Origin: Shigella phage vB_SboS_Gloob
Reading direction: 5' to 3' (one strand)
Sequence record: OL615011
DNA length: 64,000 bases
Shown here: one piece after another, positions 14,540 to 48,547 of the stretch
How positions within the stretch are numbered: position 1 is the first letter of the stretch
How the letters are laid out: each line of letters starts with the position of its first letter
The notes under the pieces: generated by a model
The model's database searches: none
Told to the model about the DNA's origin: nothing
The model's input: the letters and a program-made list of their open reading frames with translations, nothing else
Program-made: the position numbers and the translations under genes

Positions 14540-14650
14540 TTAGGCGTGAAATGTCTTACACAGTACGGCTCCGAGATATTCACACAACAAAACGAGCAAG
14601 ACACCCAATGAACATCCAATAAGCCAACCCCAAAATTCAATGTCCACCAT
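14540..14650 (-). CDS. small hydrophobic membrane peptide (36 aa), not in ORF track
   Basis: Manual translation MVDIEFWGWLIGCSLGVLLVLLCEYLGAVLCKTFHA; ATG overlaps the stop of the upstream gene (TGATG). Confidence 0.4.
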   Translation of the reverse strand: MVDIEFWGWLIGCSLGVLLVLLCEYLGAVLCKTFHA

Positions 14651-14937
14651 CACACCTCGTCTTCTTCAGGTCCACCGTCAATCAGGATGCGAGCGGTGTC
14701 GAAAGTTTCCCCGCCCGTGTTCAGCAGCTTGGTTAGATCGTCAAGATATCGGACCGTGCCAAGATCAGATGACCGCGATATAAACTCCAGCATACCATAC
14801 AACGCTGATTGGAATCGGCCATTGTCGATATGATTCTTGACCTCCATCAGGCGCAAGATGTTCTCTGACTGAGTATGGCCAACACACGCCTTGTCTCTGA
14901 TCATCTCCTTGATAGAACTTCTCTCTGATGGTGTCAT
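14650..14937 (-). CDS. hypothetical protein
   Basis: 95-aa ORF; ATGA-type overlap with neighbours. Confidence 0.4.
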   Translation of the reverse strand: MTPSERSSIKEMIRDKACVGHTQSENILRLMEVKNHIDNGRFQSALYGMLEFISRSSDLGTVRYLDDLTKLLNTGGETFDTARILIDGGPEEDEV

Positions 14938-15308
14938 AACGTACCCCCGACAGAGATCAAGAACTCTTCTTCAATGGTCGTGACCGGGCGGCGGTTGCGG
15001 GTTTCGATCATGAAGCCCCAGCCGCCGTCGGCGACGTTGCCAAAGGTCTTGACGCCAAAGGTCTTCTTCCCGTTGGAGCAGGCATAGAAGTCCAGGATGA
15101 ACGGGCTACCCTGATTGTCGATCCCACGGTTTACGCCGTCCGCTACACAGCGCTCAATCATCTTCCCGTTCTTATACAGAACGAGGTCTTGGCCATACGC
15201 CTTGAAAGCATAAACGCCGCTGGTAGACACTCCGGTGATGACAGGAGGAGCGGAAACAGCAGAGAAGGAAGCGCCCAGCAGGGCAACAGCGAGGATTAAC
15301 TTTTTCAT
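14934..15308 (-). CDS. putative secreted protein
   Basis: ORF track 14934..15329; start moved to MKKLILAVALLGASFSAVSA (signal peptide) preceded by AGAG CTATATC. Confidence 0.5.
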   Translation of the reverse strand: MKKLILAVALLGASFSAVSAPPVITGVSTSGVYAFKAYGQDLVLYKNGKMIERCVADGVNRGIDNQGSPFILDFYACSNGKKTFGVKTFGNVADGGWGFMIETRNRRPVTTIEEEFLISVGGTL

Positions 15309-15332
15309 GATATAGTCTCTTGGTTTCAAATG

Positions 15333-15899: not shown

Positions 15900-16226
15900 T
15901 TATTTGCGCAGGGCAACCACGAGTTCAGCGAGTTCACCCATGGTCGGGTCATCGCCTTTACTACCCAGCCAACCGTCGTCGATTTCGACCTGAAACTCTT
16001 CTTCGAGGTCCATTACAATTTCGATAGCGTCCAGTTCATCACCGCCGAGATCCTTCTTGGCGCGGAGGCCTGCAAACTTGTCCAACGCATCGTCTGTGGC
16101 AACTTCACCGTCAATCATTTTCTTGACGTTTGGGTATTTCACCTCGTCTGCATCTAAGTTCAGATTGTCAGTGGCGTACTGAGCCAGATGACGCATGACT
16201 TCAACATATGTTGGTTTACTGCTCAT
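15900..16226 (-). CDS. acyl-carrier-protein-like protein lacking the phosphopantetheine-attachment serine (DSL replaced by DEL)
   Basis: DLGGDELDAIEIVMDLEEEFQVEIDD aligns with E. coli AcpP [26 protein letters not shown]; Glu codon GAA at the serine position. Confidence 0.6.
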   Translation of the reverse strand: MSSKPTYVEVMRHLAQYATDNLNLDADEVKYPNVKKMIDGEVATDDALDKFAGLRAKKDLGGDELDAIEIVMDLEEEFQVEIDDGWLGSKGDDPTMGELAELVVALRK

Positions 16227-16268
16227 GCTACTTCTCCCAAAGAAAGGCGGGTTGCCCCGCCCGTTGGA

Positions 16269-18512
16269 TTAGATTTTGATCTCTTTCTCTGCCAGTTCGG
16301 CAGTGACCTTGTACTTCACACCATCCACTTCAACTTCCATGGTGGACTCTTCCAGGTCGAGGTCGGTGAACCAGCCGTGGCCAGCAACGATACCATAAAC
16401 CACTTTAGACAGCGTCTTGTTCAGGGCGCGGACTTCGGTGATGGCCGCCTTGGCAGCAGCGTCGATCCAGTTTTCGATCAGCTGTTTCTGTACGGCTTCA
16501 GGCACGGCAGTGATCGCAGGAGACTTCACGAATGCTTCGTATTCCTTCAGAGCATTGGCGATGAACAAGTCACCCGCATTGAGTTTCTTGTTCTCGGCAA
16601 TCTTCTTCTGTACTGCCGCGATGCTCGGCAGAGAAGACGCTCCAGCGATCTTAACGTTCAGCTCACGGCTCATGTAGACATCCGTGGAGTCCTTCAGTTC
16701 GGTCTTCGGTGAGAAGCCGTAATCACGGATGCCGTAGGAGGACAGGAACTCAGCCGCCTCAGCGCCGTACTGTACTGCCAGGCCTTTGGCGTTGCCTTTG
16801 CCAACCAGTTCATCACGGAAGAACTTCAGCACCTTCTGCTTGCCTTTCAGGGCTTCCAGACGGACATTATCCGCAAAGAACTGAGCAGCACTGATGTTCT
16901 TGACCATGGCGCGGTTGACCAGCGGTACGCTTTCCAGGTTCAGGACAAACACTTCCGGACCACCGAACACATGGACGCCCATCTGGCACAGATTGGTTAC
17001 AACTTCAACATCAGCCCTGAACGGCAGAGTCTTCACGTTGATGATGCCGTCTTTGACGATGGTGTAGTTGCGCCATTGGAAAGTATCCAGTTCTTCAGGC
17101 AGACCGAACTTCTTCTGCACGAACTCCGGAATCGCCACAGTGCCGTGCTGGACAGTGCGTACACTGATATTAGGGCGTTCGGAGTTATAGACCAAATCGC
17201 TGATTGGCACAACACCCAGATCGTTGGTAGGTTCGAACGTCGGGTTCCACTCTTCGTGCTCGGCCAGCTTGAGAGCCAGGGCTTTGCGCTCTTCTTTGGA
17301 CTCGGCGTTCGCGATCTGTTCTGCCAGCTTGTCTTCGGTATCGTCCAGTTTCTGAGCCGTACCGCGACCGATGCTCTTGTAGGAGAACATAGGATGTTTG
17401 GTGGCAACACACACGCCAGCTTCAGCCAGATACGTCAGCACGTCAACGACGGTCGTCGCATCTTCAGCCGGGACCAGGTCATAGTCAATACCGTCAACGC
17501 CGCGCAGCTGGTCATCAACGATGGCCTGGGTCAGATCAACTTTGATGTTGGAGTAGTCCTGCTTGGTGAAGCAGTTGCTGTACTGTTTGATGAAGCGGAC
17601 GTCGCCCGTTTTCTTCAGTGCAGCCCACACCAGGTCTGCGTCCATGATGTGTACGCCGTAGAACGCCAGCACGTATGCCGCCTGGATGTCCGCCAGCGCA
17701 TCAAGTTGGTCGATCATGTTAGGATTGACGACCCACAGCTTCGTGACGCTCTCAGGGATGCTCACGTGGCCAACGGGATGCTCTGCGTCTGCCTGTACCG
17801 CCAGAACAGTTGCTACGCCGTTTTCAACGTAGATGGCATGATCATACAGCAACGGAACATCAACAACCACCTTCGGAACTGAGGACTTCAGCACGGTTTC
17901 CAGCTCGGCCTGATACTCAACCTGACCTTCGGCAAACACGTGAGTCGCACCGGAGCGCTCAGACATCAGAGCCAGCAGTTCGCGGTTACAGTACCAGCCG
18001 TATTCGATGAAAGTGACGTTGTCGAACGCGGAAGGAAGTTTTTCGGCGGTGTCCAGGATCTCATTGGAGCGCCAGCAGTTGTCATAACCATCGGTCATGA
18101 ACGCCAGGTTGTTGACGTAGCCGGGTTTCTTCAGGTCACGCGCAGTATCCATCGCCAGTTTCAATGGCTCAACAAAACCAGTACAGCCGGACGGTTGTAG
18201 GAAGCGGTCGATCAGTTTGTTCAGCTCGCTCAGGTCAGATGCTGCACTAACCTGACGGCCAGCGAACACAGTACCAAAGTCGCCACGGGATGAGAAATAC
18301 AGAACACTCACAGTGTCTTCCGGTTTCACCAGAGAAGGCAGGTTCTCCTTCAGATGCTTACGGACTTCAGGGAGCGCCCGGTACATTGAACCGGAAATGT
18401 CTACAACGATTACATGGTTGGACGGAGCAGCAGTCGCAACCACATTCTTAAATTCTAATGATTCAATCATTGTTCTCTTCGCCTTTTGCGTAAGGGTTAA
18501 GTTCAGACTCAT
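16269..18512 (-). CDS. large protein with N-terminal von Willebrand factor A (vWA) domain
   Basis: MIDAS motif VVVDISGSM near the N-terminus; 747 aa. Confidence 0.5.
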   Translation of the reverse strand: MSLNLTLTQKAKRTMIESLEFKNVVATAAPSNHVIVVDISGSMYRALPEVRKHLKENLPSLVKPEDTVSVLYFSSRGDFGTVFAGRQVSAASDLSELNKLIDRFLQPSGCTGFVEPLKLAMDTARDLKKPGYVNNLAFMTDGYDNCWRSNEILDTAEKLPSAFDNVTFIEYGWYCNRELLALMSERSGATHVFAEGQVEYQAELETVLKSSVPKVVVDVPLLYDHAIYVENGVATVLAVQADAEHPVGHVSIPESVTKLWVVNPNMIDQLDALADIQAAYVLAFYGVHIMDADLVWAALKKTGDVRFIKQYSNCFTKQDYSNIKVDLTQAIVDDQLRGVDGIDYDLVPAEDATTVVDVLTYLAEAGVCVATKHPMFSYKSIGRGTAQKLDDTEDKLAEQIANAESKEERKALALKLAEHEEWNPTFEPTNDLGVVPISDLVYNSERPNISVRTVQHGTVAIPEFVQKKFGLPEELDTFQWRNYTIVKDGIINVKTLPFRADVEVVTNLCQMGVHVFGGPEVFVLNLESVPLVNRAMVKNISAAQFFADNVRLEALKGKQKVLKFFRDELVGKGNAKGLAVQYGAEAAEFLSSYGIRDYGFSPKTELKDSTDVYMSRELNVKIAGASSLPSIAAVQKKIAENKKLNAGDLFIANALKEYEAFVKSPAITAVPEAVQKQLIENWIDAAAKAAITEVRALNKTLSKVVYGIVAGHGWFTDLDLEESTMEVEVDGVKYKVTAELAEKEIKI

Positions 18513-18678
18513 CAGCGGCTTCGATGCGCGCCTTTACAGAGTCCAGCATATTGTTGATAAACTCACGAGACTGCTCCAGCTGAGCCAAGAGCACATCCTT
18601 TGGAGCATAGTTCTGAATGCAAGCCGGAATACTTTCAGACGTCGCCTTCAGGTCGGTAAAACATTCTTTCAGTACCAT
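18463..18678 (-). CDS. hypothetical small acidic protein
   Basis: 71-aa ORF between the vWA gene and the NAMPT-like gene. Confidence 0.3.
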   Translation of the reverse strand: MVLKECFTDLKATSESIPACIQNYAPKDVLLAQLEQSREFINNMLDSVKARIEAADESELNPYAKGEENND

Positions 18679-18755
18679 TTGATCTCACTTAACAGAGACG
18701 ACGCCCTGTTGGATTTAATAGCGGTCTTCACAGACATCAGGTTTACCTCAAAACA

Positions 18756-18771
18756 GGGGAGTCTCCTCCCC
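18756..18771 (-). terminator. hairpin terminator downstream of the NAMPT-like gene
   Basis: ggggagtctcctcccc stem-loop followed by a T-run on the minus strand. Confidence 0.45.
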
Positions 18772-18779
18772 TTCGGTTA

Positions 18780-20444
18780 TCAGATTTGTGATGCCAATTC
18801 TGCCACCAGAGGAGCAGCACGAACACGCGCATCTTCCAGAGTCTGGGTGTTGAAGAACTTGCCGTCACGATACACCAGCTGGTGCTGGTTGTCGGCGTCT
18901 TGCACCTGATCAAAGGTGATACCGTCAACCAACACTAGTTTACCCTGAGAGTCTTTAATGACTTTAAGGAAACCACGCGCAGACTTTTTAGTCCCGCCTT
19001 TGTCGGTCTTCGGCTCTTTGAAGATCTCACGGAATTCGCCGTTCACTTTACCAGCCGTTGCTTTCACTGCCGTGCCAGTACTGTCACGGGTGTTCATCTG
19101 GTAGGTGTAGGAACCGATACCGAACACCACGTTGATGGAAGCAAAGTTCCGGCCAGCCAGACGACCAAAGATCTGGTCTTCACGTGCCAGGGTGATGGAG
19201 TCGCCGTAAATCAGACCGATGTGTTCGTCCAACAGGAAGTGACCAGTTTCGGTCTGGGTCCCGCCAAAGATCTCCCACAGGCGCTGGATAGAGCCGACCG
19301 CTTCTGAACGACTGATGATATTGCGGTCATCTGCCATCAGAGAGTTGATCGTGCCTTCGCCTGTAATCAGGTGATAGGTGTTCGTCTCTTCGATGTGAAT
19401 GACTTCGGTGCTGCTAGACACGCCGCTGATGTTCAGCATAGCGCGGTCTTTGAACCCCTCAATGCGGTAGCCGCCGACGATATGAACTGGGTCGCCCGAG
19501 TCAGGGCGGATCACGACTTTGCCGTTGCGTGCCATGATAATATCTTTCAGGCGCGGCAGATAGTCGTCGATGACCTGCCAGTAATCCCACGCATCAGACA
19601 CGATGCTGACGATGCCATCAGGATACACGTCCTGCACCAGGCGGCGGAAGGTTTCGAATTCACCATCCTTCGTACCCATACACATCACGGCGTGTTCGGT
19701 AGCCGCAACAGAACCAGCAACGACATAGTCTTCGTCGATGTCTGCGCCATAATACTCTTCTACGAAGTCCAGGGCAGGGTTGGTATCGGTGCCTTTGAAG
19801 AACACCAGATGACCGGAACCGGAAGACGCCGCGTCATGCCACCCACTCATACCACGGAAGGAGAAGTCGTGGCCTTGGTAGTCGATGAACCAATGGTCCG
19901 GCGACACGCCTGTAGCGAGGGCAGCTTTCACCATCAGTGCCTTGTAATGCAGAGCGATGGTGGCGTTCGTCATCGGCTTCCAGATCTCAGAGCTGAACAC
20001 AGTCTCCAGATAGTTGGTCAGCCAGTAGAACTCCGGCAGGGTGTTGAACATCACATACACCGGAACGCCATATGGGCACATGGTGCCTTCAGGCAGAGCA
20101 CGGACTTCGATAGGCAGGTAGCCGAGGTCATGCAGGGCTTCAATATGCTCTGTGCCGACGCGGCCTGGACCCAGGACTTTGTTCATGCGACGGGCATACT
20201 TCTTCAACACCTTGGCCTTTGGGCGCTGGAAGAATGCTTCGTCAAACAGTTCGTGGAACCAGGTCATGAAGCCCTGGATGCCCCAGACCACCACGCCGTT
20301 CTTCGGCAGGTGAGAGTTGAACAGTTTGTTGGAGCGCGGAGTTCCGTTGGAGAACACCAGCTCGCTGCCTTCAGGGAACTGATAGATGTGCCCTGATTTG
20401 TAGAAGTCGATTGCATGGATTGGATCTAAGTGGCGCATGCTCAT
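18780..20444 (-). CDS. nicotinamide phosphoribosyltransferase (NAMPT/NadV) family enzyme; candidate nicotinamide ADP-ribose transferase
   Basis: Collinear with human NAMPT: LPIEVRALPEG...EFYWLTNYLETV, HDFSFRG, GHLVFFKGTDT, VIRPDSGDP. Confidence 0.85.
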   Translation of the reverse strand: MSMRHLDPIHAIDFYKSGHIYQFPEGSELVFSNGTPRSNKLFNSHLPKNGVVVWGIQGFMTWFHELFDEAFFQRPKAKVLKKYARRMNKVLGPGRVGTEHIEALHDLGYLPIEVRALPEGTMCPYGVPVYVMFNTLPEFYWLTNYLETVFSSEIWKPMTNATIALHYKALMVKAALATGVSPDHWFIDYQGHDFSFRGMSGWHDAASSGSGHLVFFKGTDTNPALDFVEEYYGADIDEDYVVAGSVAATEHAVMCMGTKDGEFETFRRLVQDVYPDGIVSIVSDAWDYWQVIDDYLPRLKDIIMARNGKVVIRPDSGDPVHIVGGYRIEGFKDRAMLNISGVSSSTEVIHIEETNTYHLITGEGTINSLMADDRNIISRSEAVGSIQRLWEIFGGTQTETGHFLLDEHIGLIYGDSITLAREDQIFGRLAGRNFASINVVFGIGSYTYQMNTRDSTGTAVKATAGKVNGEFREIFKEPKTDKGGTKKSARGFLKVIKDSQGKLVLVDGITFDQVQDADNQHQLVYRDGKFFNTQTLEDARVRAAPLVAELASQI

Positions 20445-21295
20445 TTTACACGTCCTGTATTTTCAGTTTTGAAAGGAAGGCCGTCGGTGGTGATATTCTC
20501 CCACCAGACAGTGTCGGCATACACAGCATCATAGATCCCGTCGAAAACAGAGAGACCTTTGCTGAAGATGCCATGGGTGACGAAGAGCGTCATGTGCTTA
20601 GGCTCGTGCTTCTGAAGCTCTTTACCCAGCTCAACAAACGTGCGCCCGCCATCGCAGATATCATCAACCACCACCAGATAGCGGTCTTTGATCAGTTCAG
20701 GGTTTGTAATGCTCACCCCAATGATCTCACCAGTCTTGGTGTCACGGTTCTTGTGGCCGTAGACAACAGGAACACCATCCAACGACAGGCTGAGGGCTTC
20801 GGTCTTCTTCGCCGCGCCGCCGTCAGGGGCTACTAGCACAGCGTTGTTCCCACGGATGAACCAGCCCAGATACTGCCGCACGATGTAATCTTGCGGGACA
20901 ACATGGACGTTGTTGATCAGAGAAGACACGACATGGCTGTGAGGGTCTTTGATCGCCACGCGGTCAAAGTTCATGCTATTGATGAACTCAGCCGCCCACT
21001 TCACGGACAGAGGCTCGCCGAAGTCGCAATGGCGGTCCTGGCGAGCATACGGGAAGTAAGGGATATACGCATGGAAGGTCGTCAGACGGTCCACGTTACC
21101 CAGGCCGCGCACGGCGTTTACCAGAAGCGCCAGCTCAATGAAGTCGGCTGATGATTTGATGTGGGCATCAATCACAACCGTCTGAATCTTACCGACAGGA
21201 ATACCAGCCTTTTGGATCTTGATATGTTCCTCACCACCTGGGAAGGTGAAGTGTTTGTAGAACACATCTTGGTCGTTCAATTTCAAACGAAACAT
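20441..21295 (-). CDS. ribose-phosphate pyrophosphokinase (PRPP synthetase) family enzyme; candidate ADP-ribose pyrophosphate synthetase
   Basis: IPYFPYARQDRH and VVVDDICDGGRT match Prs motifs; ATGA overlap with the NAMPT-like gene. Confidence 0.8.
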   Translation of the reverse strand: MFRLKLNDQDVFYKHFTFPGGEEHIKIQKAGIPVGKIQTVVIDAHIKSSADFIELALLVNAVRGLGNVDRLTTFHAYIPYFPYARQDRHCDFGEPLSVKWAAEFINSMNFDRVAIKDPHSHVVSSLINNVHVVPQDYIVRQYLGWFIRGNNAVLVAPDGGAAKKTEALSLSLDGVPVVYGHKNRDTKTGEIIGVSITNPELIKDRYLVVVDDICDGGRTFVELGKELQKHEPKHMTLFVTHGIFSKGLSVFDGIYDAVYADTVWWENITTDGLPFKTENTGRVK

Positions 21296-22244: not shown

Positions 22245-24263
22245 TTAGAAAACAACTTTCACAGTGCGGTTGAAAGAGCCGCTCACCTTCACGAACACGT
22301 GGTTGCGTTGGGTGGTAGAGAAGCCCAGACCGGACAGCTGCTCAGTGCTTGGCTGTACTTTAATCTTACCGCCCAACATTTCAAAAACCTTGCGGTGTTT
22401 ATCAAGTTCCGGCTTCAGATACTCGTTATAGAAGCCACGAGTGCCGACAGGGTTAGCACAACCTTCCAGAATGAAGAACACGTGCTTGTTGCCTGTCTGT
22501 TCGCCATCCCAATGGTTTGGTGAGTTCAGAACCAGCTGTACCTTCTGGAAGACAGCGGTCTTGATACCCCAGATTTCCTGGGAGCGAGCATCGTCCTTCA
22601 GGGTAGAACGGATGTCTACCACTTGTCCAGCGCGGACATCAATCACAACAGCCAGAGTGCGATCTTTGTGCTTCAGGCCAGGATGCGAAAAACGCTTGGT
22701 CTGGCCTTTGTATTCAACTTCGATTTCGAAGCCCATATCACAGGTTTCACGCTGGCTGAAGTTAGTGACATAGAACTCGTACAGACCATCACGCAGCTTG
22801 CGTTCATCGCTGAAGAAGATGTTCTCCACCGGGCGGCGGTTGGGGTCAATACCGTCCATACCGTTCATGTCGATATCCAGGGTTGCGCCAGTTGCCGAAC
22901 GACGGTTGTGATAATACACGTGGTTGTGAAGAGGATCGTTCAGGCTCAGATCCAGGTCATCGTTGTTATGCCACGCCAGGGACACACGGAGGAAACCGTC
23001 AACGTTGCCGCCTGCCGTCTTCACGCGCTCTTTGATGGAGTCGGCCACTTCACCGTTGTATGACCAGCTGAAGCCGTTGTTCCACTTGAACAGGTTAGGA
23101 GCACCTGCCGTAGCCGGAGCGATCAGGGACATCAGGTTGCCAGTGTGAGAGTTTTCAACCAGCACTTCCAGGGAATGCGCCTTTGGCAACACGTTGGTCA
23201 GGAAGTCGTCGATGGTGATCTCTTCAACCTTGTCCAGGGACTTGGTCGGAGTCTTCACTTCAGACGCCAGCTGAGCAAACGGGTCCATCTTCTTCTGTGC
23301 TGCCAGGTCGGCAAACAGAACGTTGTTGATGGTCAGATCGTCATACACGGCATAACGGCGACCCAGTGAATCAGTCAGACCCAGCGCTTCGACTTCTTTC
23401 TGCGCGTTTTCAATCATGGACTTCGTGACCAGCGCGGTTGGGCGCTTGTAGTTCGTCGGAGCGACTTTGGCTTCAAAGGACTTCACGGCGGTTTCCAGAT
23501 CCCGACCTTCATTGAGGTCTACCAACAGAGAGCCAATCACGGTATTGCGGATGCCGTGAGGGGTGTGTCCGTTTGCACGGTAGCCAGTACGCCAAGCCCA
23601 CAGAGCGCGTTTCTCTTCTGCAGTTTGTTCGTACAGGGTCTTGCTCGTCACGAACGCCTGCACAGCAGCTTTGTGCTCTTCACCACGATACAGAGAATTC
23701 TGATCAATCAGTTCCAGAACGATTTCGGCCGATTCCAGAGACAGTTCACGCAGGCCGCGCTCAAACACTTCAATCGCCTGGCGGATTTCACCCTTCTTAG
23801 AAGCGATGGCATCAGCCCGCAGAACATAGCTGGGCAGCAGGTCGGTGTGGAAGTGGTTGTAGGTGCGGACATTACCGTCTTTCATTTCGTGATTCGACTC
23901 AACGCCGACTTTCTTGGTATCGTTGAAGTACACGTCGACGATTGCGTGTTGCTTGACATACGCAGACAGCGCCGCAGCGACAACGTCGTATTCGTTACCC
24001 AGCTGAATGTTATCCCAGATAGAGATCACGTTCAGGTCGGCGTCGATGGTCACCACACCGCCGATGTTACGGATGAATTGTTTACAGCAGGTGCAGTCGT
24101 GCTCGGTGCGCTCACGGTAGAGCGGGTTGGTGCCAGCAGGGAAAGAGTTCAGATACAGATCCCACAGAGCATCTTTATCGATGTTGGTCATGAACAGACC
24201 AGTTGCTGACATGGCCAGCACATTATTGTTTACGGCTACTGCGAAGGGCTTAAATTCTGACAT
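22245..24263 (-). CDS. large hypothetical protein (672 aa)
   Basis: No polymerase, ligase or P-loop motif recognised by eye; contains a CTCC cysteine cluster. Confidence 0.5.
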   Translation of the reverse strand: MSEFKPFAVAVNNNVLAMSATGLFMTNIDKDALWDLYLNSFPAGTNPLYRERTEHDCTCCKQFIRNIGGVVTIDADLNVISIWDNIQLGNEYDVVAAALSAYVKQHAIVDVYFNDTKKVGVESNHEMKDGNVRTYNHFHTDLLPSYVLRADAIASKKGEIRQAIEVFERGLRELSLESAEIVLELIDQNSLYRGEEHKAAVQAFVTSKTLYEQTAEEKRALWAWRTGYRANGHTPHGIRNTVIGSLLVDLNEGRDLETAVKSFEAKVAPTNYKRPTALVTKSMIENAQKEVEALGLTDSLGRRYAVYDDLTINNVLFADLAAQKKMDPFAQLASEVKTPTKSLDKVEEITIDDFLTNVLPKAHSLEVLVENSHTGNLMSLIAPATAGAPNLFKWNNGFSWSYNGEVADSIKERVKTAGGNVDGFLRVSLAWHNNDDLDLSLNDPLHNHVYYHNRRSATGATLDIDMNGMDGIDPNRRPVENIFFSDERKLRDGLYEFYVTNFSQRETCDMGFEIEVEYKGQTKRFSHPGLKHKDRTLAVVIDVRAGQVVDIRSTLKDDARSQEIWGIKTAVFQKVQLVLNSPNHWDGEQTGNKHVFFILEGCANPVGTRGFYNEYLKPELDKHRKVFEMLGGKIKVQPSTEQLSGLGFSTTQRNHVFVKVSGSFNRTVKVVF

Positions 24264-24378: not shown

Positions 24379-25599
24379 TTATTCAGGTTTCTTCAAACGG
24401 TCCAGCAAATTGACGGAACCACGTTTGAGCACGACTTCATCACAGCGCTTTTTGTATTCCCCGCCGCCGTCATAGCTGACCTTGCCCCGAGGTTTTTCAC
24501 CGCGCCCAACCGCCTCAACACAGCGAGTGTACTTGCTCAGTTCACAGAACATGTTCTCCAGCTGCATGACGTTCATGCACTGATCTACAGGCTCTTCGGC
24601 TGACCAGAATTGCTCGCGAACATACCCATATTGGGAGTATACTGCGTCCTGATTATCCCGTAGCCAGAATATGCATTCTTCGTGAGTCATGCCGTCTTTG
24701 TTCAGGAACAGCAGATCAATACCTGCGCGACAGCCCGGTCCGGCTATCGTGAAGTGGTTCTCACTGAACGGATAACCAGGCATGTACGTGAAGTCAACCC
24801 AGATCTGGTATGCCAGGAATGGACCAAGACCTTCGATGTCGTCGTACATGCGCTGGTATACTTCCAGAGGAGTACCAAGGCGCAGCAGGTCATGGAAGTA
24901 ATTTGGATACTTGTTGACGAATGCCTTCAGGGAACGGATGACACGCATTGGCATGTACGGCTCCCAGCCTTCGATGGTGTAGAAGTCCGGCTCCGCTTCA
25001 GCGATGGCCTTGGCTTCCTTATAATCCATGTTCTGGGTCGAACCATCTTTGCAGATCAGGTTCACCATCATCCCACCGAAGCGCTGCTCTTTGTGGTTGA
25101 CAACCAGCTCAGGGAAAGCCAGGCATTGCTTCAGACCGCCCGTGTTGAAGGCATTGGTGAATACTTTACCGCCGTCGGCCTCGAACTTCTGAAGTCGTTC
25201 GCGGGTTGCGTCAAGGTTGATCTTGGCGAATTCTTTGATCGTCATCGCGCCGCCGATAGCCTGGATCGGATCCCAGAGGTTGAACATGCGGAACAGCACG
25301 CAGTTAAACATCTTGTCTGCCATACCCAGAGCATCGTTGTTGACGATGTTGTTGATCAGGTTAAGAGACTGCCTGTCGTGCTCTCTCCGGACGTTACAGA
25401 ACTTGACCTGCCGTAGTATAGGATTATTCGTCCAAGGGGCAGGAAGACGCTGGACGTCCTTCTTGACGTGGATCTTATAGCGCTCGCTCATCCATTCGTA
25501 AGACAGGCGGGTATGGGTCGGACTGAGAACCGGTTTGGCCGACTTTATCTTTTCTTCACGGACACCGCAGTACGGGACGTCCAGGGCTTTATCTTTCAT
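24379..25599 (-). CDS. hypothetical protein (406 aa)
   Basis: Long ORF, function not recognised. Confidence 0.5.
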   Translation of the reverse strand: MKDKALDVPYCGVREEKIKSAKPVLSPTHTRLSYEWMSERYKIHVKKDVQRLPAPWTNNPILRQVKFCNVRREHDRQSLNLINNIVNNDALGMADKMFNCVLFRMFNLWDPIQAIGGAMTIKEFAKINLDATRERLQKFEADGGKVFTNAFNTGGLKQCLAFPELVVNHKEQRFGGMMVNLICKDGSTQNMDYKEAKAIAEAEPDFYTIEGWEPYMPMRVIRSLKAFVNKYPNYFHDLLRLGTPLEVYQRMYDDIEGLGPFLAYQIWVDFTYMPGYPFSENHFTIAGPGCRAGIDLLFLNKDGMTHEECIFWLRDNQDAVYSQYGYVREQFWSAEEPVDQCMNVMQLENMFCELSKYTRCVEAVGRGEKPRGKVSYDGGGEYKKRCDEVVLKRGSVNLLDRLKKPE

Positions 25600-25668: not shown

Positions 25669-26538
25669 TTAATCGATACGGGACAGCTGAGTGATAGATG
25701 ATTGCACTGGGCTGGCCACATAGATACGGACGTTGGCTTTCCACGTACCCCACAGGAGAGGCAGAGTCGGGAAGTTTACTTCGTTCAGCTCAAATACAGG
25801 GATGTAACTCTCCAGCGCTTCCCCAGAATACGCCTGGAAGCCCATCTCGGCGTACTGAAGGATCTCTTCTGGGAAATCGAAAGGTGCGTATGCAACGCCC
25901 ATGGATTCGTTCATGCCCATTCGACCCGCAGTGGCAGTGCCCGTCAGAATGATTTCGGTGATCTGGCGCTTAGGCTCGGTGGTCAACATATCAGAGAAGT
26001 CCGGCTCTTTGAATGCTGCCATGTTCTTCAGGAACTTGCCAGCCGGGTACTCTTTGCCGTCGACGGTGATGGTGTCTACCACTTTGATGCACGCCTGAGG
26101 GAATTCCCCTTCGATGCGTAGACTTTCGCGTGGGAAGCCTTTGTTGTAGTAGTAATCCAGTGCAGGCACAACTTCACCTTCATTACGGATGAACTTGCTC
26201 ATGTTGGAAGCATAAACGCGCTGTAGGCACTCATCGCCGTCGAAACCAGCAATGTGAGCCACGCCGTCATTGACGGTGGTGATATCACCCTGAGCGTCCA
26301 TGATGTCCTTCAGGATTTCCTGAATGGTTCTGGTCTGGTAAGGTTCTTGTTTAGGTGTGAGCACCAGATCCAGTTTCACATCGCAATCGTAGTACGCCGC
26401 CTCCAACAGTTCGCGGGTCTCTTCCAGCACCAGTTTCGCCTGATTGCGAATCTTACCAAAGTCGGGCGATGTGACATCGCCCTTTGCATTACCGAAAGCC
26501 AGATTCAGATTCACGTTCTTAGAAAATGTAGTTGTCAT
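25669..26538 (-). CDS. hypothetical protein (289 aa), possible MazG-like N-terminal helix
   Basis: LVLEETRELLEAA acidic helix; weak. Confidence 0.4.
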   Translation of the reverse strand: MTTTFSKNVNLNLAFGNAKGDVTSPDFGKIRNQAKLVLEETRELLEAAYYDCDVKLDLVLTPKQEPYQTRTIQEILKDIMDAQGDITTVNDGVAHIAGFDGDECLQRVYASNMSKFIRNEGEVVPALDYYYNKGFPRESLRIEGEFPQACIKVVDTITVDGKEYPAGKFLKNMAAFKEPDFSDMLTTEPKRQITEIILTGTATAGRMGMNESMGVAYAPFDFPEEILQYAEMGFQAYSGEALESYIPVFELNEVNFPTLPLLWGTWKANVRIYVASPVQSSITQLSRID

Positions 26539-43767: not shown

Positions 43768-44301
43768 TTACAGAGACTTATCAGAAATGGCCTGGAAGTA
43801 ACGCAGATCGACAGTGAACTGAGTATATGAGTCCATTGCAGACATATCCAGTTCCAGCTGGCCGAGGTTCTGAGGCCAACCCCCCTGCAGAGTCCAGGTC
43901 TTAGTGACGTTGTCGTTCGCATCCAGTAACTCCATGATCACGTCACGGAAATAATCATCTGGATTCGCCGCCGCACGGTTGCTGTTGCTTCCGTTAATGT
44001 ACTGCTGCCAAACTTCAAAGGCGTTGTAAGCAGAGTTGTTCACGACGTTGATGAACGTAATAGGAAGCGCTTCGAAGCGACGATCACCAGGGAATGGAAG
44101 TTCACGACCACCCCAAGGCACAAGGATCTCACCCAGCTGGCCAGTAGGAGTGTTGGTTGTTACTGCCAACAGAGACACGTCGCGAATGGTATCCGCGCCA
44201 GCTACGAATGCTGGGAAGTTGACGGTCACACGCCAGCGGTGCTGACGTTGTACGCCGCCCCCACGTGACATGGCCGCGCGAAATTCATTAACTGTAGCCA
44301 T
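43768..44301 (-). CDS. 19: tail tube protein (T4 gp19-like)
   Basis: C-terminal GGWPQNLGQLELD ... FTVDLRY matches T4 gp19 GLWPTNVGELQLD ... FEVTLALDY. Confidence 0.85.
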   Translation of the reverse strand: MATVNEFRAAMSRGGGVQRQHRWRVTVNFPAFVAGADTIRDVSLLAVTTNTPTGQLGEILVPWGGRELPFPGDRRFEALPITFINVVNNSAYNAFEVWQQYINGSNSNRAAANPDDYFRDVIMELLDANDNVTKTWTLQGGWPQNLGQLELDMSAMDSYTQFTVDLRYFQAISDKSL

Positions 44302-46327: not shown

Positions 46328-48547
46328 TCACCGTCTCAGCCATTCTTCCATGGACATGCCAGAGCGTTCGTCATACACCTGAACTCCACCAAACCCTGGG
46401 ATACTCTCTATAGAGTGAGGATCTGGTGTTGAAAGCACACCCCCGAAAGGTAACATCTGAGATTCTTCCATCGCAGATAATCTTCCTCTCATGTCCACAG
46501 AGATACTTGAGTTTGTGAGATCACTAAACCATTCTTGTTTCACCGCCCATGCATAGAGCACGAGAGGCATCACACAGTCATCATGACAACCATCATCGGC
46601 TTCATACCTTGTCCCAGTCCATACGAATGTACTGAGTTCATCTATCGTGTCCTGGTCATCAACCACCAGCATCTCACGTTCGATAAGCGCCTTGAGGTTA
46701 GCACAACCATTCGAACGCACTTTCTTGTTCGTGTTGATGCCAGGCTCAGGGCGGCGACCACCAATTCGTTTGCCAGTACCCTTCGCATCTGTGGTAGTGA
46801 AGATGATCTCTGGGTATTCAATTTCCTGGTATAGAATTGTGATTACCTGGCCGCCCACGTCGTTGTTGGTTTCAACCAGCATCGGACACGTGCCATATTT
46901 CTCGCCCATGTCGGCGATAGTGTATGCATACATCATTGGAGGTATCGTGTTGTTCCGATACTTGGCCGCAATCTTGTGAGGATAGTCTGTGATGTCCAAG
47001 ATGGTAAGGACAGAGTAATCCCCCTCCACGCCTTTGCCTGTATCGGCGATACCCATGTAGATGCGCTTCGGATCGTAATCGTGATAGATCTTGGTGAACT
47101 CGTTCGGCTCCTGATAGAGTTTCGAGGTCATCTTGTCTAAGCACTTGGCCGGAATCAATGAACCGACGGAACCACGGAACTTGATACCGAATTCCTGATC
47201 GAAACGTGCATCGCCCAGCTTCGCCCTCTGTTTGGATTCCCAGTTCGGATCCTTGGTGTATGTTGGAACACGATACCAAGGCACCTCTGTGAGTTTGAAG
47301 TCGTTGTACTGAGGGTGTTCTGGGTTCGCCTTGGTGACGATGTCGTAGAACAACCCGCGCTGGCCTTTCGGCGTACTGGTCAAGATACAACGTGAAGTCT
47401 CTGCAGATGCAATCGCAGGGAATGTTGACTCCCAGAATTCAAAGTCATTTTCGATGAACGCCACTTCGTCCACATACAGGAGCGATACAGATCGACCACG
47501 GATAGAGTCAGAAGATGTCGCATAAGCATAGATCTTCGATCCGTTTTCGAACTCGATGAGCGTGGAGCCGAACTTCTCACAACCCTGCTGGAGGAAGAAT
47601 GGCAAATCCTGGTATGCCTTGCGGATACGGTCTAGGATTTCAATCGCCTGCTTCTCTTTGTTCGCCAGTACCGCGATCTCTTTGTCAGAGTGGAACATCG
47701 CATACCAGAGCAGGAACGCTGCTACGACTGTCGTGTTGTGGCTGAGGAAGCCGTTGGTGTAGTAGCGCTGATCACTAGATTTCACCTGTAGGTCATACAT
47801 GTGATGCATCTCACCAGTCTGCCATACCTCAACGACTTCTTCTAGACCTTCTTCGGTCATCAGCCGTGAACCAGCAACCAGATCTTTAGCAAACACTTCC
47901 TTCATGTTCTGATTGAAGAACATGTGATCATCGGCCACGTTGATACGACGACCACTGGAAGTGATGACAACGTACTCTTGGTACAGCTTGGTCTTGTGCG
48001 CGGCGATGACAGGCACCCAGCCTTTGTCACAGCGAACAAAATAACGCTTGCCGAAGCGGCTGTCTACGAACTTATCGTGTTTGCCAAAGGCATTCAGTGG
48101 CTCGGCGTGATTTGGTCCCTCGAAGCGGCTGTGAAGCTCCTCGATGGTGACTTTAAACTCTTCTTGGCTGAACGTATCGTAAACCTCGACGATGCTGTCA
48201 CCCTTCACACACTTGCCAGACTGACGCGCCTGGACTACGGCGTTGAAGCGGTGATCCTGGAAGTCATGGAACAGCTGCTTCTGATAATCATGCATATCGA
48301 AGAGGATGAAGCCCTTATCGATGGTCGTGATCTTGTAGTAGTTGGCGGCGAAGTAATGAGCGTCCATCGCGCACTCAACGAACTCCGATTCTTGATCGTC
48401 GGTCAACATCAACTCTACACGAGGAGCACGCACAGACGGCTTGCGCATGAACGTCTGGTCCATACGCAATCTGACATCATCAATCTTGAATCCCGTCTTT
48501 ATCGGGGCATATTCAATATCACGCTTCTGATACGCCATCGTCTTCAC
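46328..48547 (-). CDS. 17: terminase large subunit (T4 gp17-like), interrupted by a mini-intein in the Walker A P-loop
   Basis: Extein reads ARQSGK | TTVVAAF, matching T4 gp17 SRQLGKTTVVA; 739 aa including a 159-aa insert. Confidence 0.9.
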   Translation of the reverse strand: MKTMAYQKRDIEYAPIKTGFKIDDVRLRMDQTFMRKPSVRAPRVELMLTDDQESEFVECAMDAHYFAANYYKITTIDKGFILFDMHDYQKQLFHDFQDHRFNAVVQARQSGKCVKGDSIVEVYDTFSQEEFKVTIEELHSRFEGPNHAEPLNAFGKHDKFVDSRFGKRYFVRCDKGWVPVIAAHKTKLYQEYVVITSSGRRINVADDHMFFNQNMKEVFAKDLVAGSRLMTEEGLEEVVEVWQTGEMHHMYDLQVKSSDQRYYTNGFLSHNTTVVAAFLLWYAMFHSDKEIAVLANKEKQAIEILDRIRKAYQDLPFFLQQGCEKFGSTLIEFENGSKIYAYATSSDSIRGRSVSLLYVDEVAFIENDFEFWESTFPAIASAETSRCILTSTPKGQRGLFYDIVTKANPEHPQYNDFKLTEVPWYRVPTYTKDPNWESKQRAKLGDARFDQEFGIKFRGSVGSLIPAKCLDKMTSKLYQEPNEFTKIYHDYDPKRIYMGIADTGKGVEGDYSVLTILDITDYPHKIAAKYRNNTIPPMMYAYTIADMGEKYGTCPMLVETNNDVGGQVITILYQEIEYPEIIFTTTDAKGTGKRIGGRRPEPGINTNKKVRSNGCANLKALIEREMLVVDDQDTIDELSTFVWTGTRYEADDGCHDDCVMPLVLYAWAVKQEWFSDLTNSSISVDMRGRLSAMEESQMLPFGGVLSTPDPHSIESIPGFGGVQVYDERSGMSMEEWLRR
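47735..48211 (-). mobile_element. mini-intein (Hint domain, no homing-endonuclease domain) inside the terminase large subunit gene
   Basis: Begins with Cys (CVKGDSIVEV), ends ...MYDLQV...NGFLSHN, followed by Thr +1; 159 aa placed by codon arithmetic from the ORF start. Confidence 0.8.

What the first reader, a model, noticed from the sequence alone, without database searches (positions are those of the whole stretch)
16269..18512. 747-aa protein with an N-terminal vWA/MIDAS domain next to the ACP-like gene
A von Willebrand A domain (DISGSM MIDAS motif) is followed by about 500 aa of unassigned sequence. vWA proteins in phages often partner with AAA+ ATPases or act in virion or host-protein interactions; none of the expected partners is adjacent, so its role is unclear.
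Basis: partly seen in the sequence, partly recalled or inferred. Interest (0 to 1): 0.4.

Follow-up and report, generated by a model that had tools for sequence, protein, structure and literature searches.

The report
Conserved phage vWA protein, function unknown
This is the local copy of a widespread, already catalogued protein of large tailed phages that joins a metal-dependent "sticky" vWA domain to a conserved module of about 380 residues with no known relatives; its role is still unknown, so it is a real but ordinary open question.

Summary
A 747-codon ORF lies at 16269..18512 on the minus strand. It has a vWA domain above Pfam's thresholds and a complete MIDAS (D38, S40, S42, T111, D141), invariant in 34 homologues of 35-89% identity. 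Translation probably starts at Met15, giving 733 aa. The window is an Agtrevirus-like Ackermannviridae phage. The protein is the orthologue (93-98%) of LIMEstone1 ORF108 and CBA120 orf143, and belongs to PHROG 2426, annotated "unknown function".

AlphaFold2 (pLDDT 86.5) gives a vWA fold followed by a beta-sandwich. This resembles ArnB, PDB 4fx5 and Sec23/24-type vWA proteins.

Residues 366-747 have no relative in PDB, BFVD or Pfam outside the family. That module occurs in at least 1361 protein clusters, almost always behind a vWA-sized N-terminus.

No AAA+ partner was found, and no neighbouring gene is conserved across 32 lineages. The adjacent "ACP" is confined to Ackermannviridae and has lost its phosphopantetheine-attachment serine (Ser to Glu/Asp).

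Virion mass spectrometry in relatives conflicts: 6 peptides in LIMEstone1, 1 spectrum in Sajous1. The gene also lacks the late-promoter motif found before structural genes.

Best guess: an early/middle cytoplasmic adaptor that binds a partner through MIDAS. This is an ordinary member of a known, uncharacterised family.

The parts
16269..18470 (-). Probable coding sequence of the vWA protein (733 aa from Met15, stop included). The open frame extends upstream to an ATG at 18512 (747 codons).
   Evidence: ORF list and translation. Start inferred from homologue lengths, the PHROG match from residue 15, a near-invariant Met, the ATGATTGA overlap with the upstream ORF, and pLDDT below 50 for the first residues of the model.
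17886..18422 (-). vWA (von Willebrand factor A) domain, ORF residues about 31-209.
   Evidence: Pfam PF00092 and PF13768 above their gathering scores. AlphaFold2 alternating beta/alpha pattern. Foldseek matches to solved vWA domains: E as low as 4e-10, and TM-score normalised to the target up to 0.76.
18387..18401 (-). MIDAS motif D38-I-S40-G-S42 (DxSxS).
   Evidence: Read directly from the sequence. D, S and S are invariant in 34 homologues.
18180..18182 (-). MIDAS threonine T111.
   Evidence: Invariant column in alignment A1 (T110 in A1 numbering, which is ORF numbering minus 1).
18090..18092 (-). MIDAS aspartate D141, within the invariant DGYDN motif.
   Evidence: Invariant column in alignment A1.
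17418..17885 (-). Beta-sandwich (about residues 214-262) and helical region (about 264-365) following the vWA domain.
   Evidence: Secondary structure of the AlphaFold2 models. The full-length model matches 4fx5, ArnB (8s05), ArnE (5a8j), ITIH1 and Sec24 over 350-520 columns; TM-score normalised to the query is 0.31 for 4fx5 against about 0.21 for vWA-only hits. The ArnB architecture is described in PMC12852372. The similarity of the helical part is not shown independently.
16272..17417 (-). Family-specific C-terminal alpha/beta module (residues 366-747), with conserved motifs RPNIS 446-450, RNYTIVKDGI 481-490, GIRDYGFSPK 594-603, SSLPS 626-630 and a conserved C-terminus EKEIKI.
   Evidence: Confident model (pLDDT 88.7) with no PDB match (best E 0.43). 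Only family members match in BFVD. No Pfam hit and no PDB sequence-profile hit. Conservation profile. 1361 clusters carry the module.
18463..18678 (-). Upstream 71-codon ORF whose stop overlaps the Met15 start (ATGATTGA); it is probably co-translated with the vWA gene.
   Evidence: Sequence. phrog_20065 E=4e-11. Weak similarity to the C-terminus of LIMEstone1 ORF109 and none to the upstream gene in Miro. A similar overlapping small ORF is annotated in MK-13.
18750..18771 (-). Terminator-like hairpin GGGGAG-GAGA-CTCCCC followed by TGTTTT, directly after the NAMPT stop codon and upstream of the 71-codon ORF and vWA unit.
   Evidence: Read from the sequence. The equivalent hairpin is annotated as a terminator in LIMEstone1.
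16245..16262 (-). Terminator-like hairpin between the vWA stop codon and the ACP-like start.
   Evidence: Terminator scan: 7-pair stem, 6 of them G-C, then a T-rich tail. A terminator is annotated at the same place in LIMEstone1.
15900..16226 (-). ACP-like protein (108 aa) whose phosphopantetheine-attachment Ser is replaced by Glu (DLGGD-E-LD). It is a neighbour, not shown to be a partner.
   Evidence: Pfam and PHROG hits. Alignment to B. subtilis ACP places DSLD opposite DELD. Glu or Asp sits at this site in four Ackermannviridae genera.

Best explanation
The gene encodes the Agtrevirus orthologue of a large family found almost only in phages (PHROG 2426; LIMEstone1 ORF108; CBA120 orf143). 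The product is a soluble, acidic protein of about 81 kDa with three parts:
1. An N-terminal vWA domain with a complete MIDAS.
2. A beta-sandwich and helical region, packed on the vWA as in ArnB, 4fx5 and Sec23/24-type proteins.
3. A family-specific alpha/beta module of about 380 residues.

Most likely mechanism (inferred, not shown): the protein is made from a non-late (early or middle) transcription unit and acts inside the infected cell as a metal-ion-dependent protein-binding adaptor. A divalent cation held by D38, S40, S42, T111 and D141 would be completed by a carboxylate (Asp/Glu) or a phosphate group of a partner protein. The strongly conserved orphan module would supply the family-specific second binding surface or activity.

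The family keeps one architecture in phages of Gram-negative and Gram-positive hosts and has no conserved neighbouring gene. The partner is therefore probably a universal host component or a core phage protein encoded elsewhere in the genome. Small amounts may be carried in virions.
For: Shown by tool results:
- vWA fold and above-threshold Pfam hits.
- All five MIDAS residues are invariant across 34 sequences with 35-89% identity to the window protein.
- No hydrophobic stretch looks like a signal peptide or membrane helix (maximum Kyte-Doolittle 1.45 over 19 residues).
- pI is 5.0-6.1 across the family.
- The full-length model superposes on vWA plus beta-sandwich proteins (4fx5, ArnB, ITIH1) beyond the vWA domain alone.
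- The orphan module is strongly conserved, with many invariant polar residues, and sits behind a vWA-sized N-terminus in nearly all of the 150 listed hits out of 1361.
- Family members occur in phages of Enterobacteria, Pseudomonas, Rhizobium, Vibrio, Shewanella and Bacillus.
- No neighbouring gene family is shared by more than 5 of 32 lineages (and 17-20).
- The protein is expressed in three phages according to mass spectrometry.

Evidence for non-late expression:
- The late-type motif CTAAATA occurs 10 times against 3.25 expected, always on the minus strand. It sits just upstream of several structural and other genes: scaffold, tail sheath, a 740-aa ORF in the tail-spike region and DUF7217.
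- There is no copy between 2.3 and 31.4 kb, so none precedes the unit formed by the 71-codon ORF and the vWA gene.
- A variant (CTAACTA) does precede the nearby 152-aa ORF, which sits at the position of the 150-aa LIMEstone1 ORF annotated as a confirmed structural protein.
- In Sajous1 virions purified on CsCl, the protein gave 1 spectrum, the same level as thymidylate synthase and dUTPase.
Against: - LIMEstone1 virion mass spectrometry recovered 6 unique peptides (11.4% coverage). That equals the gp27 hub and exceeds gp5, which suggests a genuine low-copy virion component.
- The promoter argument rests on a motif alone; no transcript data exist.
- No partner was identified.
- No ligand-binding or metal-binding experiment exists for any family member.
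- The many invariant polar residues in the orphan module could equally mean an enzyme rather than an adaptor.
- Coordinates of the model were not available to me, so the packing of the beta-sandwich and its N-terminal strand is inferred from the secondary structure and from Foldseek scores.
Confidence: 0.42

Rival explanations
1. It is a genuine low-copy virion protein, either head-internal and injected like T4 Alt or a tail/baseplate accessory. It would be packaged in the particle and delivered to, or acting at, the next host cell, with the MIDAS anchoring it to another virion protein or to a host target on entry.
For: - The LIMEstone1 orthologue (93% identical) gave 6 unique peptides and is annotated as a confirmed structural protein.
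- Other scattered virion proteins are encoded in the same region of LIMEstone1.
- The Thanatos-1 homologue TH1_124 was found in the virion preparation.
- In one metagenomic clade the gene lies within 5 kb of gp23 and the prohead protease. In Miro and pf16 it lies within 3-5 kb of baseplate genes.
- Its size and its position outside the structural module recall T4 alt.
Against: - Only 1 spectrum in CsCl-purified Sajous1 virions, a level the authors flag as possible contamination.
- The Thanatos preparation also contained ligase, polynucleotide kinase and lysis inhibitors.
- No late-type promoter motif lies upstream, although bona fide structural genes have one.
- PBS1 gene 259 is not among the genes annotated as virion structural proteins.
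- The N-terminus forms a predicted beta-strand (residues 16-20) directly before the vWA domain and does not look like a detachable targeting peptide.
- No deposited virion structure matches the C-terminal model.
Confidence: 0.3
2. It binds the ACP mimic encoded next to it. The acidic residue that replaces the attachment serine on helix II of the ACP-like protein would be the MIDAS ligand, and the complex would interfere with host ACP-dependent processes.
For: - The gene order vWA then ACP-like is conserved in the Ackermannviridae examples examined, spanning four genera.
- The attachment Ser is Glu or Asp in all four genera checked.
- MIDAS sites typically take a ligand carboxylate (established knowledge of integrin I domains and of midasin with Rsa4).
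Against: - The ACP-like gene is confined to Ackermannviridae (271 records), whereas the vWA family is far wider and has no such neighbour elsewhere.
- A terminator-like hairpin separates the two genes.
- No interaction test was possible.
Confidence: 0.07
3. It is the vWA partner of a MoxR-type AAA+ ATPase, hijacking a host enzyme such as RavA because the phage has none. It would act as the substrate adaptor in an ATP-driven remodelling reaction.
For: Cytoplasmic prokaryotic vWA proteins with an intact MIDAS commonly work with MoxR ATPases (established knowledge; RavA-ViaA, PMC9489729, listed). The MIDAS is intact here.
Against: - No MoxR-type gene was found among the larger window ORFs scanned, nor among recurrent neighbours in 74 related loci.
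- The vWA is N-terminal, unlike ViaA, NorD and CoxE (recalled, not tested).
- No sequence similarity to those families was found.
Confidence: 0.06
4. It is a Ku-like DNA-end-binding protein (vWA plus beta-barrel ring) that protects or joins phage genome ends.
For: An N-terminal vWA followed by beta-rich and helical regions is superficially the domain order of Ku70/80. The gene lies among replication and recombination genes.
Against: - The C-terminal model has no match to Ku or to anything else in the PDB (best E 0.43).
- Ku is absent from the top 50 matches to the full-length model.
- The protein is acidic throughout, pI about 5.
- Ackermannviridae already encode a gp2-type end protector.
Confidence: 0.03
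5. It is an extracellular adhesin displayed on the particle, like pilus-tip vWA adhesins or Hoc, binding a host-surface or environmental ligand.
For: Foldseek matches to the pilus adhesins PitA and SpaC. Some database records call it a minor tail protein.
Against: - Those matches rest on the shared vWA domain; the TM-scores are no higher than for vWA-only hits.
- One architecture and 26-48% identity are kept between phages of Bacillus, Rhizobium, Pseudomonas and enterobacteria, which is unlike fast-evolving receptor binders.
- The gene is not in the tail-spike module.
- There is no late promoter motif.
Confidence: 0.04

Closest known systems
PHROG 2426: LIMEstone1 ORF108 'vWa containing protein', CBA120 orf143, Miro gp241
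   Same: Full-length match to the PHROG profile (E=0, residues 15-747). 92.8% identity to LIMEstone1, 97.6% to P46FS4 and 48.6% to Miro over the whole length. Same gene order with the ACP-like gene in Ackermannviridae.
   Different: Nothing of substance; it is an orthologue. The family itself has no assigned function.
ArnB/ArnE of Sulfolobus, Catenulispora vWA protein 4fx5, and the Sec23/Sec24 core (vWA + split beta-sandwich + helical domain)
   Same: Best extended structural matches of the full-length model: 4fx5 E=3.7e-10, TM-score 0.31 normalised to the query and 0.50 to the target over 406 columns; 8s05 ArnB E=1e-9; 5a8j; Sec24 2nut_B and 3eh2 over about 515 columns. The order is the same: an N-terminal strand, vWA, beta-sandwich, then helices. 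The MIDAS is intact, as in ArnB.
   Different: 10-16% sequence identity. No zinc-finger/FHA partner (ArnA) and no gelsolin domain. The C-terminal part alone finds no ArnB or Sec24 match. An extra module of about 380 residues is absent from all of them. Phospho-regulation is not indicated.
Inter-alpha-trypsin inhibitor heavy chains (ITIH1, PDB 6fpy)
   Same: The only significant sequence-profile match in the PDB (E=3.7e-5, profile positions 13-222), and a top Foldseek hit. vWA with MIDAS.
   Different: Extracellular eukaryotic protein with an N-terminal VIT domain. The match covers the vWA and little else.
MoxR-associated vWA proteins (ViaA, NorD, CoxE, CbbO)
   Same: Cytoplasmic prokaryotic vWA proteins that use a MIDAS to engage a partner.
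   Different: No AAA+ MoxR gene nearby. Different domain order. No sequence similarity detected.
T4 Alt (an injected capsid protein encoded outside the structural module)
   Same: Similar size. Encoded among non-structural genes. Detected in virion preparations of some relatives.
   Different: No ADP-ribosyltransferase fold or any other known fold in the C-terminal part. No late promoter motif. The N-terminus does not look like a cleavable capsid-targeting peptide.

Membership tests
vWA domain superfamily (Pfam PF00092 / PF13768) | Profile score above the curated gathering threshold | tested here: met
   PF00092 scores 28.5 bits against 23.8; PF13768 scores 27.6 against 27; both cover residues 34-197.
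vWA domain superfamily (Pfam PF00092 / PF13768) | Rossmann-like alpha/beta fold of the A domain | tested here: met
   AlphaFold2 model with pLDDT 86.5. Foldseek to solved vWA domains gives E down to 4e-10. CLCA1 6pyo has TM-score 0.76 normalised to the target and rmsd 3.1 A.
vWA domain superfamily (Pfam PF00092 / PF13768) | Complete MIDAS: DxSxS, then T, then D | tested here: met
   D38, S40, S42, T111 and D141 are present and invariant in 34 of 34 aligned homologues. Metal binding itself was not tested.
PHROG 2426 / Ackermannviridae 'vWA containing protein' | Full-length similarity to family members | tested here: met
   phrog_2426 E=0, 1227 bits, profile positions 2-736 of 736. tblastn gives 75-98% identity to all Ackermannviridae genera.
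ArnB / Sec23-24-type vWA core | Beta-sandwich packed on the vWA domain in the same relative orientation | tested here: met
   4fx5 has TM-score 0.31 normalised to the query (about 230 residue-equivalents), against about 0.21 for vWA-only hits. ArnB scores 0.26-0.28. Six strands at about residues 214-262.
ArnB / Sec23-24-type vWA core | Sandwich topology split by the vWA insertion (N-terminal strands contribute to the sandwich) | tested here: inconclusive
   The model has a strand at residues 16-20 before the vWA.
ArnB / Sec23-24-type vWA core | Following helical bundle homologous to the ArnB_C domain or the Sec23/24 helical domain | tested here: inconclusive
   Helices are present at about residues 264-365, but the C-terminal model alone finds no ArnB or Sec24 match (best E 0.43).
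ArnB / Sec23-24-type vWA core | Zinc-finger element or partner (ArnA ZnF; Sec23/24 ZnF), and a gelsolin domain in Sec23/24 | tested here: not met
   No zinc-finger or gelsolin hit in Pfam. No matching neighbour.
MoxR AAA+ / vWA pair | MoxR-type AAA+ ATPase gene adjacent or in the same operon | tested here: not met
   Neighbours are a 71-codon ORF, NAMPT, Prs and the ACP-like gene. Among the larger window ORFs scanned, the only AAA-type hits are the gp44-like clamp loader and an SMC_N/AAA_23 (gp46-like) protein. No recurrent AAA+ neighbour in 74 related loci.
Ku70/Ku80 | Ku beta-barrel/bridge core following the vWA domain | tested here: not met
   The confident C-terminal model has no PDB match at E below 0.4. 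Ku is not among the top 50 full-length matches.
Virion structural protein | Reproducible detection in purified particles above contaminant level | tested here: inconclusive
   Literature only: 6 peptides in LIMEstone1; 1 spectrum in Sajous1; present in a Thanatos preparation that also held ligase and polynucleotide kinase.
Virion structural protein | Late-gene promoter upstream | tested here: not met
   No CTAAATA or CTAANTA motif lies between the NAMPT terminator and the gene, and none lies anywhere between 14.6 and 27 kb. The motif does precede structural genes. This is motif-level evidence only.
Anti-phage defence or known counter-defence families (PADLOC) | Match to a defence-system profile | tested here: not met
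   No PADLOC family at E<=0.01.
Acyl carrier protein (the neighbouring gene) | Conserved Ser of the DSL motif, the site of 4'-phosphopantetheine attachment | tested here: not met
   DSLD of B. subtilis ACP aligns with DELD here. Glu or Asp occupies this site in Agtrevirus, Limestonevirus, Kuttervirus and Taipeivirus.

The most novel reading that the evidence does not exclude
The most novel reading my evidence does not exclude has three parts. First, residues 366-747 are a previously undescribed fold carrying a new activity. Second, the whole protein is a new class of phage effector: an ArnB/Sec23-24-like vWA core fused to this module. Third, it is conserved in over a thousand lineages of large myoviruses of Gram-negative and Gram-positive hosts because it targets a universal bacterial component, being either injected with the DNA or made early. 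In Ackermannviridae it may work with the serine-less ACP mimic encoded next to it.
Probability: 0.15. Interest if true: 0.6.

Novelty: new member of a known kind. Interest (0 to 1): 0.3.

Why it matters
The family appears to be a core gene of Ackermannviridae: the tblastn identity bands of 60-99% cover 269 phage records. It is also frequent in other large virulent myoviruses used for biocontrol and therapy. At least 1361 clusters at 50% identity exist, yet no function is known for any of them.

A confident model with no structural relative for about 380 residues marks a real gap in phage protein annotation. Finding the MIDAS ligand would show whether this is a host-takeover factor, an assembly factor or an injected protein.

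For this particular window nothing new is added beyond what GenBank and PHROG already record, so it is a useful target for experiments but not a surprise.

Tried and rejected
1. Ku-like reading: rejected, because the C-terminal model matches no fold.
2. MoxR partner: searched among the larger window ORFs and in 74 related loci; none found.
3. Known fold for the C-terminal 538 residues: Foldseek against PDB (best E 0.43); Foldseek against BFVD (only family members plus an uncharacterised SP-15 protein); Pfam at E<=10 on three fragments; profile against PDB sequences (best E=1). All negative.
4. Defence or counter-defence profiles (PADLOC): none. NCBIfam gave only sub-threshold vWA-type hits.
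5. Guilt by association: annotated context in Miro, pf16, PBS1 and a Rhizobium phage, then all-against-all clustering of ORFs in 74 IMG/VR loci representing 32 lineages. No neighbour is shared by more than 5 lineages. The most widely shared clusters lying at the gene itself were antisense shadow ORFs inside the vWA gene.
6. Upstream small ORF as a conserved partner: only a weak local match to LIMEstone1 ORF109 and none to Miro.
7. Cellular homologue: the Paraburkholderia hit sits on a 629-kb contig in a phage-like context (RecJ, CCA-adding enzyme, PTH2), not in a cellular operon.
8. T4-type late promoter TATAAATA: only 1 hit, at chance level. The phage's own motif is CTAAATA.
9. Literature: no functional study of the family turned up in six full-text searches. 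Band-based proteomes of phiD3 and EspM4VN are uninformative for low-copy proteins.
10. Positional analogy with T4 alt: considered but not supported by any fold or sequence similarity.
11. A profile search of the T4 genome for a diverged homologue was considered and not run.
Full report
**1. The observation**

The window has an open frame of 747 codons at 16269..18512 on the minus strand. The plus-strand reading of the same coordinates is full of stops. DISGSM lies at residues 38-43.

Pfam places a vWA domain at residues 34-197 above the curated thresholds: PF00092 scores 28.5 against 23.8 bits, and PF13768 scores 27.6 against 27. The gene immediately downstream (15900..16226, same strand) is ACP-like.

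Translation most likely starts at Met15 (ATG 18470), giving 733 aa:
- Homologues are 732-738 aa long.
- The PHROG profile aligns from residue 15.
- That Met is nearly invariant.
- The first residues of the model have pLDDT below 50.
- The ATG overlaps the stop of an upstream 71-codon ORF (ATGATTGA) and follows GAAGAG.

Numbering below is that of the 747-codon ORF. The alignment A1 and the full-length AlphaFold2 model lack Met1, so their numbers are one lower.

**2. Where it comes from and what family it belongs to**

The region is 94-96% identical in DNA to Agtrevirus phages (P46FS4, MK-13, Ag3, SKML-39), which belong to the Ackermannviridae.

The protein matches PHROG 2426 ("unknown function") end to end. 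tblastn finds it in 503 phage records:
- Ackermannviridae genera: 75-98% identity. The 60-99% identity bands cover 269 records.
- Slopekvirus and other T4-like phages of Klebsiella, Citrobacter, Cronobacter and Enterobacter: about 48%.
- Pseudomonas phage pf16: 36%.
- Bacillus phage PBS1: 26%.
- Rhizobium phages: 27%.

GenBank already annotates it as "vWA containing protein" in LIMEstone1, Maynard, EspM4VN and others.

A profile of the C-terminal part alone, run against 1.84 billion cluster representatives, finds 1361 proteins at E<=0.001 and 873 at E<=1e-30. In nearly all of the 150 listed, the module starts at residue about 200-240 of a 700-800 aa protein. The shorter hits look like truncated gene calls. 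The architecture is therefore fixed.

The one apparently cellular member (Paraburkholderia, on a 629-kb contig) sits in a phage-like neighbourhood.

**3. Anatomy**

The vWA domain spans residues about 31-209. All five MIDAS positions (D38, S40, S42, T111, D141) are invariant in 34 sequences with 35-89% identity to the window protein.

AlphaFold2 with this alignment gives a confident full-length model (pLDDT 86.5, pTM 0.75).

The best matches are not bare vWA domains but vWA plus beta-sandwich proteins:
- Catenulispora 4fx5: E 3.7e-10, 406 columns, TM-score 0.31 normalised to the query, against about 0.21 for vWA-only hits.
- ITIH1.
- The archaeal regulator ArnB (8s05) and its paralogue ArnE (5a8j).
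- More weakly, Sec24.

[quoted passage not shown] The model has the same order: a strand at 16-20, the vWA, six strands at about 214-262, then helices at about 264-365. I accept the vWA plus sandwich resemblance. The helical part and the split topology remain unproven, because I had no coordinates and because the C-terminal model alone does not hit ArnB or Sec24.

Residues 366-747 are the real unknown. A separate model of residues 210-747 is confident (pLDDT 88.7, pTM 0.77). Even so, the searches found nothing outside the family:
- PDB by fold: best E 0.43, probability 0.04.
- BFVD: only family members and an uncharacterised 361-aa protein of Bacillus phage SP-15.
- Pfam: nothing even at E<=10.
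- PDB sequences by profile: best E=1.

The module is strongly conserved, with motifs NCFTKQDYS 313-321, RPNIS 446-450, RNYTIVKDGI 481-490, GIRDYGFSPK 594-603, SSLPS 626-630 and a conserved C-terminus EKEIKI.

The protein is acidic (pI about 5, and 4.9-6.1 across the family). It has no hydrophobic segment that could be a signal peptide or membrane helix.

**4. Context**

On the minus strand the order is: Prs, NAMPT, a terminator-like hairpin (18750-18771), the 71-codon ORF, the vWA gene, a terminator-like hairpin (16245-16262), the ACP-like gene, another hairpin. LIMEstone1 has terminators annotated at the same places.

No MoxR-type AAA+ gene was found among the larger window ORFs scanned; the only AAA-type hits are the gp44-like clamp loader and a gp46-like SMC protein.

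Distant family members have entirely different neighbours. I fetched 74 IMG/VR loci, grouped them into 32 lineages by vWA identity, and clustered all neighbouring ORFs. No family is shared by more than five lineages. The gene stands alone. Its partner, if any, is encoded elsewhere or by the host.

The ACP-like gene is confined to Ackermannviridae (271 records), so it cannot be the universal partner.

**5. Is it a virion protein?**

- LIMEstone1: the 93%-identical ORF108 gave 6 unique peptides and 11.4% coverage. That equals the gp27 hub and exceeds gp5. The non-structural proteins the authors flagged as unexpected gave 1 peptide each (PMC3296691).
- Sajous1 (Kuttervirus, CsCl-purified): a single spectrum, like thymidylate synthase, dUTPase and the ACP-like protein. 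The authors warn that low counts may be contamination (PMC10892097).
- Shewanella phage Thanatos-1: the homologue TH1_124 is in the virion preparation, but so are DNA ligase, polynucleotide kinase and lysis inhibitors (PMC7530303 supplement).
- PBS1: gene 259 is annotated as a hypothetical protein, whereas several neighbouring genes are annotated as virion structural proteins.

From the sequence, this phage's late-type promoter motif appears to be CTAAATA. It occurs 10 times against 3.25 expected, always on the minus strand. It lies just upstream of the scaffold, tail-sheath, a 740-aa ORF in the tail-spike region and DUF7217 genes, and variants (CTAAGTA, CTAATTA) lie before gp23, the portal gene and the ORF at 43768-44301. 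There is no copy between 2.3 and 31.4 kb, and no variant between the NAMPT terminator and the vWA gene. A variant (CTAACTA, at 14543) does precede the nearby 152-aa ORF. That ORF sits at the position of the 150-aa LIMEstone1 ORF annotated as a confirmed structural protein.

This is motif-level evidence, but it argues that the vWA gene is not a late gene. I put genuine virion membership at about 0.3.

**6. Most likely mechanism**

Shown:
- A complete, invariant MIDAS on a vWA fold.
- A soluble, acidic protein.
- A fixed fusion to a conserved orphan module.
- A distribution almost entirely in phages, across hosts with very different envelopes.
- No conserved neighbour.
- Expression confirmed by mass spectrometry in three phages.

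Inferred: the protein acts in the cytoplasm from an early or middle transcript as a metal-dependent adaptor. A carboxylate or phosphate group of a partner would complete the MIDAS cation, as in integrin I domains and in midasin with Rsa4 (established knowledge of the vWA superfamily). The orphan module would provide the family-specific second surface or activity. Conservation from Bacillus phages to enterobacterial phages argues for a universal target and against a receptor-binding role.

Confidence is about 0.4 for this general mechanism. The identity of the partner is unknown.

Rivals, with my confidence in each:
- Low-copy injected or structural protein: 0.3.
- Binder of the adjacent ACP mimic: 0.07.
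- Adaptor for a host MoxR ATPase: 0.06.
- Surface adhesin: 0.04.
- Ku-like DNA-end binder: 0.03.

**7. Comparison with known systems, and novelty**

This is an orthologue of an already annotated family: PHROG 2426, and the LIMEstone1 "vWa containing protein" described in 2012. As a vWA protein it passes every membership test I could run. As an ArnB/Sec23-24-type core it passes the sandwich test, fails on the zinc-finger and gelsolin elements, and is inconclusive on the rest. It is not a Ku, not a MoxR-paired vWA protein, and not in PADLOC.

The gene is therefore a new member of a known, uncharacterised kind. The part worth attention is the 380-residue orphan module, which is conserved in more than a thousand clusters.

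**8. Verdict**

Interest 0.3.

The most novel reading still open is a new effector fold that targets a universal host component, possibly working with the serine-less ACP mimic in Ackermannviridae. I give it about 0.15 probability and 0.6 interest if true.

Noticed in passing
window 15900-16226 (minus strand): The 'acyl carrier protein' next to the vWA gene cannot carry phosphopantetheine. The Ser of the DSL motif is Glu here (DLGGDELD), and Glu or Asp in Limestonevirus, Kuttervirus and Taipeivirus homologues. The gene is confined to Ackermannviridae (271 records) and directly followed the vWA gene in every record examined. It looks like an ACP mimic rather than a carrier.
   Followed up: partly
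window 18780-21295 (minus strand): Nicotinamide phosphoribosyltransferase (554 aa) and ribose-phosphate pyrophosphokinase (284 aa) lie directly upstream. This is an NAD+ salvage pair of the kind reported to counter NAD-depleting defence systems (from memory, not checked here).
   Followed up: no
window 24379-25599 (minus strand): 5-hmdU DNA kinase (PF18723, E=8e-82), a marker of thymidine hypermodification in Ackermannviridae. A MazG-like pyrophosphatase lies next to it at 25669-26538.
   Followed up: no
window, minus strand, motif starts (plus-strand coordinate of the first base) at 1748, 2337, 31462, 34648, 40800, 41156, 46324, 50601, 57114, 61960: The motif CTAAATA occurs 10 times (3.25 expected), always on the minus strand. 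Several copies lie just upstream of structural genes, with variants CTAAGTA and CTAATTA before the gp23 and portal genes. It looks like this phage's late promoter, in place of the T4 motif TATAAATA (1 hit, at chance level). No copy lies between 2.3 and 31.4 kb.
   Followed up: partly
window 46328-48547 (minus strand): The large terminase subunit is 739 aa and has a sub-threshold Intein_splicing hit at residues 126-230 (E=2e-6, 28.1 bits against a 35.8 cut-off). This may be an intein or its remnant.
   Followed up: no
window 22245-24263 (minus strand): A 672-aa ORF with no Pfam, NCBIfam or PADLOC hit. It matches phrog_1735 (unknown function) over its full length, so it is another large conserved unknown close to the vWA gene.
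   Followed up: no
window 14934-15329 (minus strand) compared with L007 2862-3368: At the position where Shigella phage MK-13 has a 168-aa 'RNA polymerase ADP-ribosylase' (phrog_832), this window has an unrelated 131-aa ORF (phrog_5474, unknown function). This is a variable cassette in an otherwise collinear region.
   Followed up: partly
L072 3310-5157 and L072 12604-14502: In a metagenomic relative, the ORF carrying the prohead protease domain also has a sub-threshold Intein_splicing hit, and the ORF carrying the PhoH domain has LAGLIDADG and Hom_end hits. These may be inteins inside phage morphogenesis and PhoH genes.
   Followed up: no
L006 (Paraburkholderia sp. EG287A, contig JBFRCE010000009, 629 kb): The only family member labelled as bacterial sits among phage-like genes (RecJ, CCA-adding enzyme, PTH2, Q_salvage, an FtsH-like protease). 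The contig may be a very large phage or a phage-derived element.
   Followed up: no
BFVD hit A0A127AX08 (Bacillus phage SP-15, 361 aa): This uncharacterised protein matches the C-terminal model (E=1.4e-9, TM-score 0.54 normalised to the target) and is too short to include a vWA domain. The orphan module may exist on its own, or the gene may be split, in SP-15.
   Followed up: no
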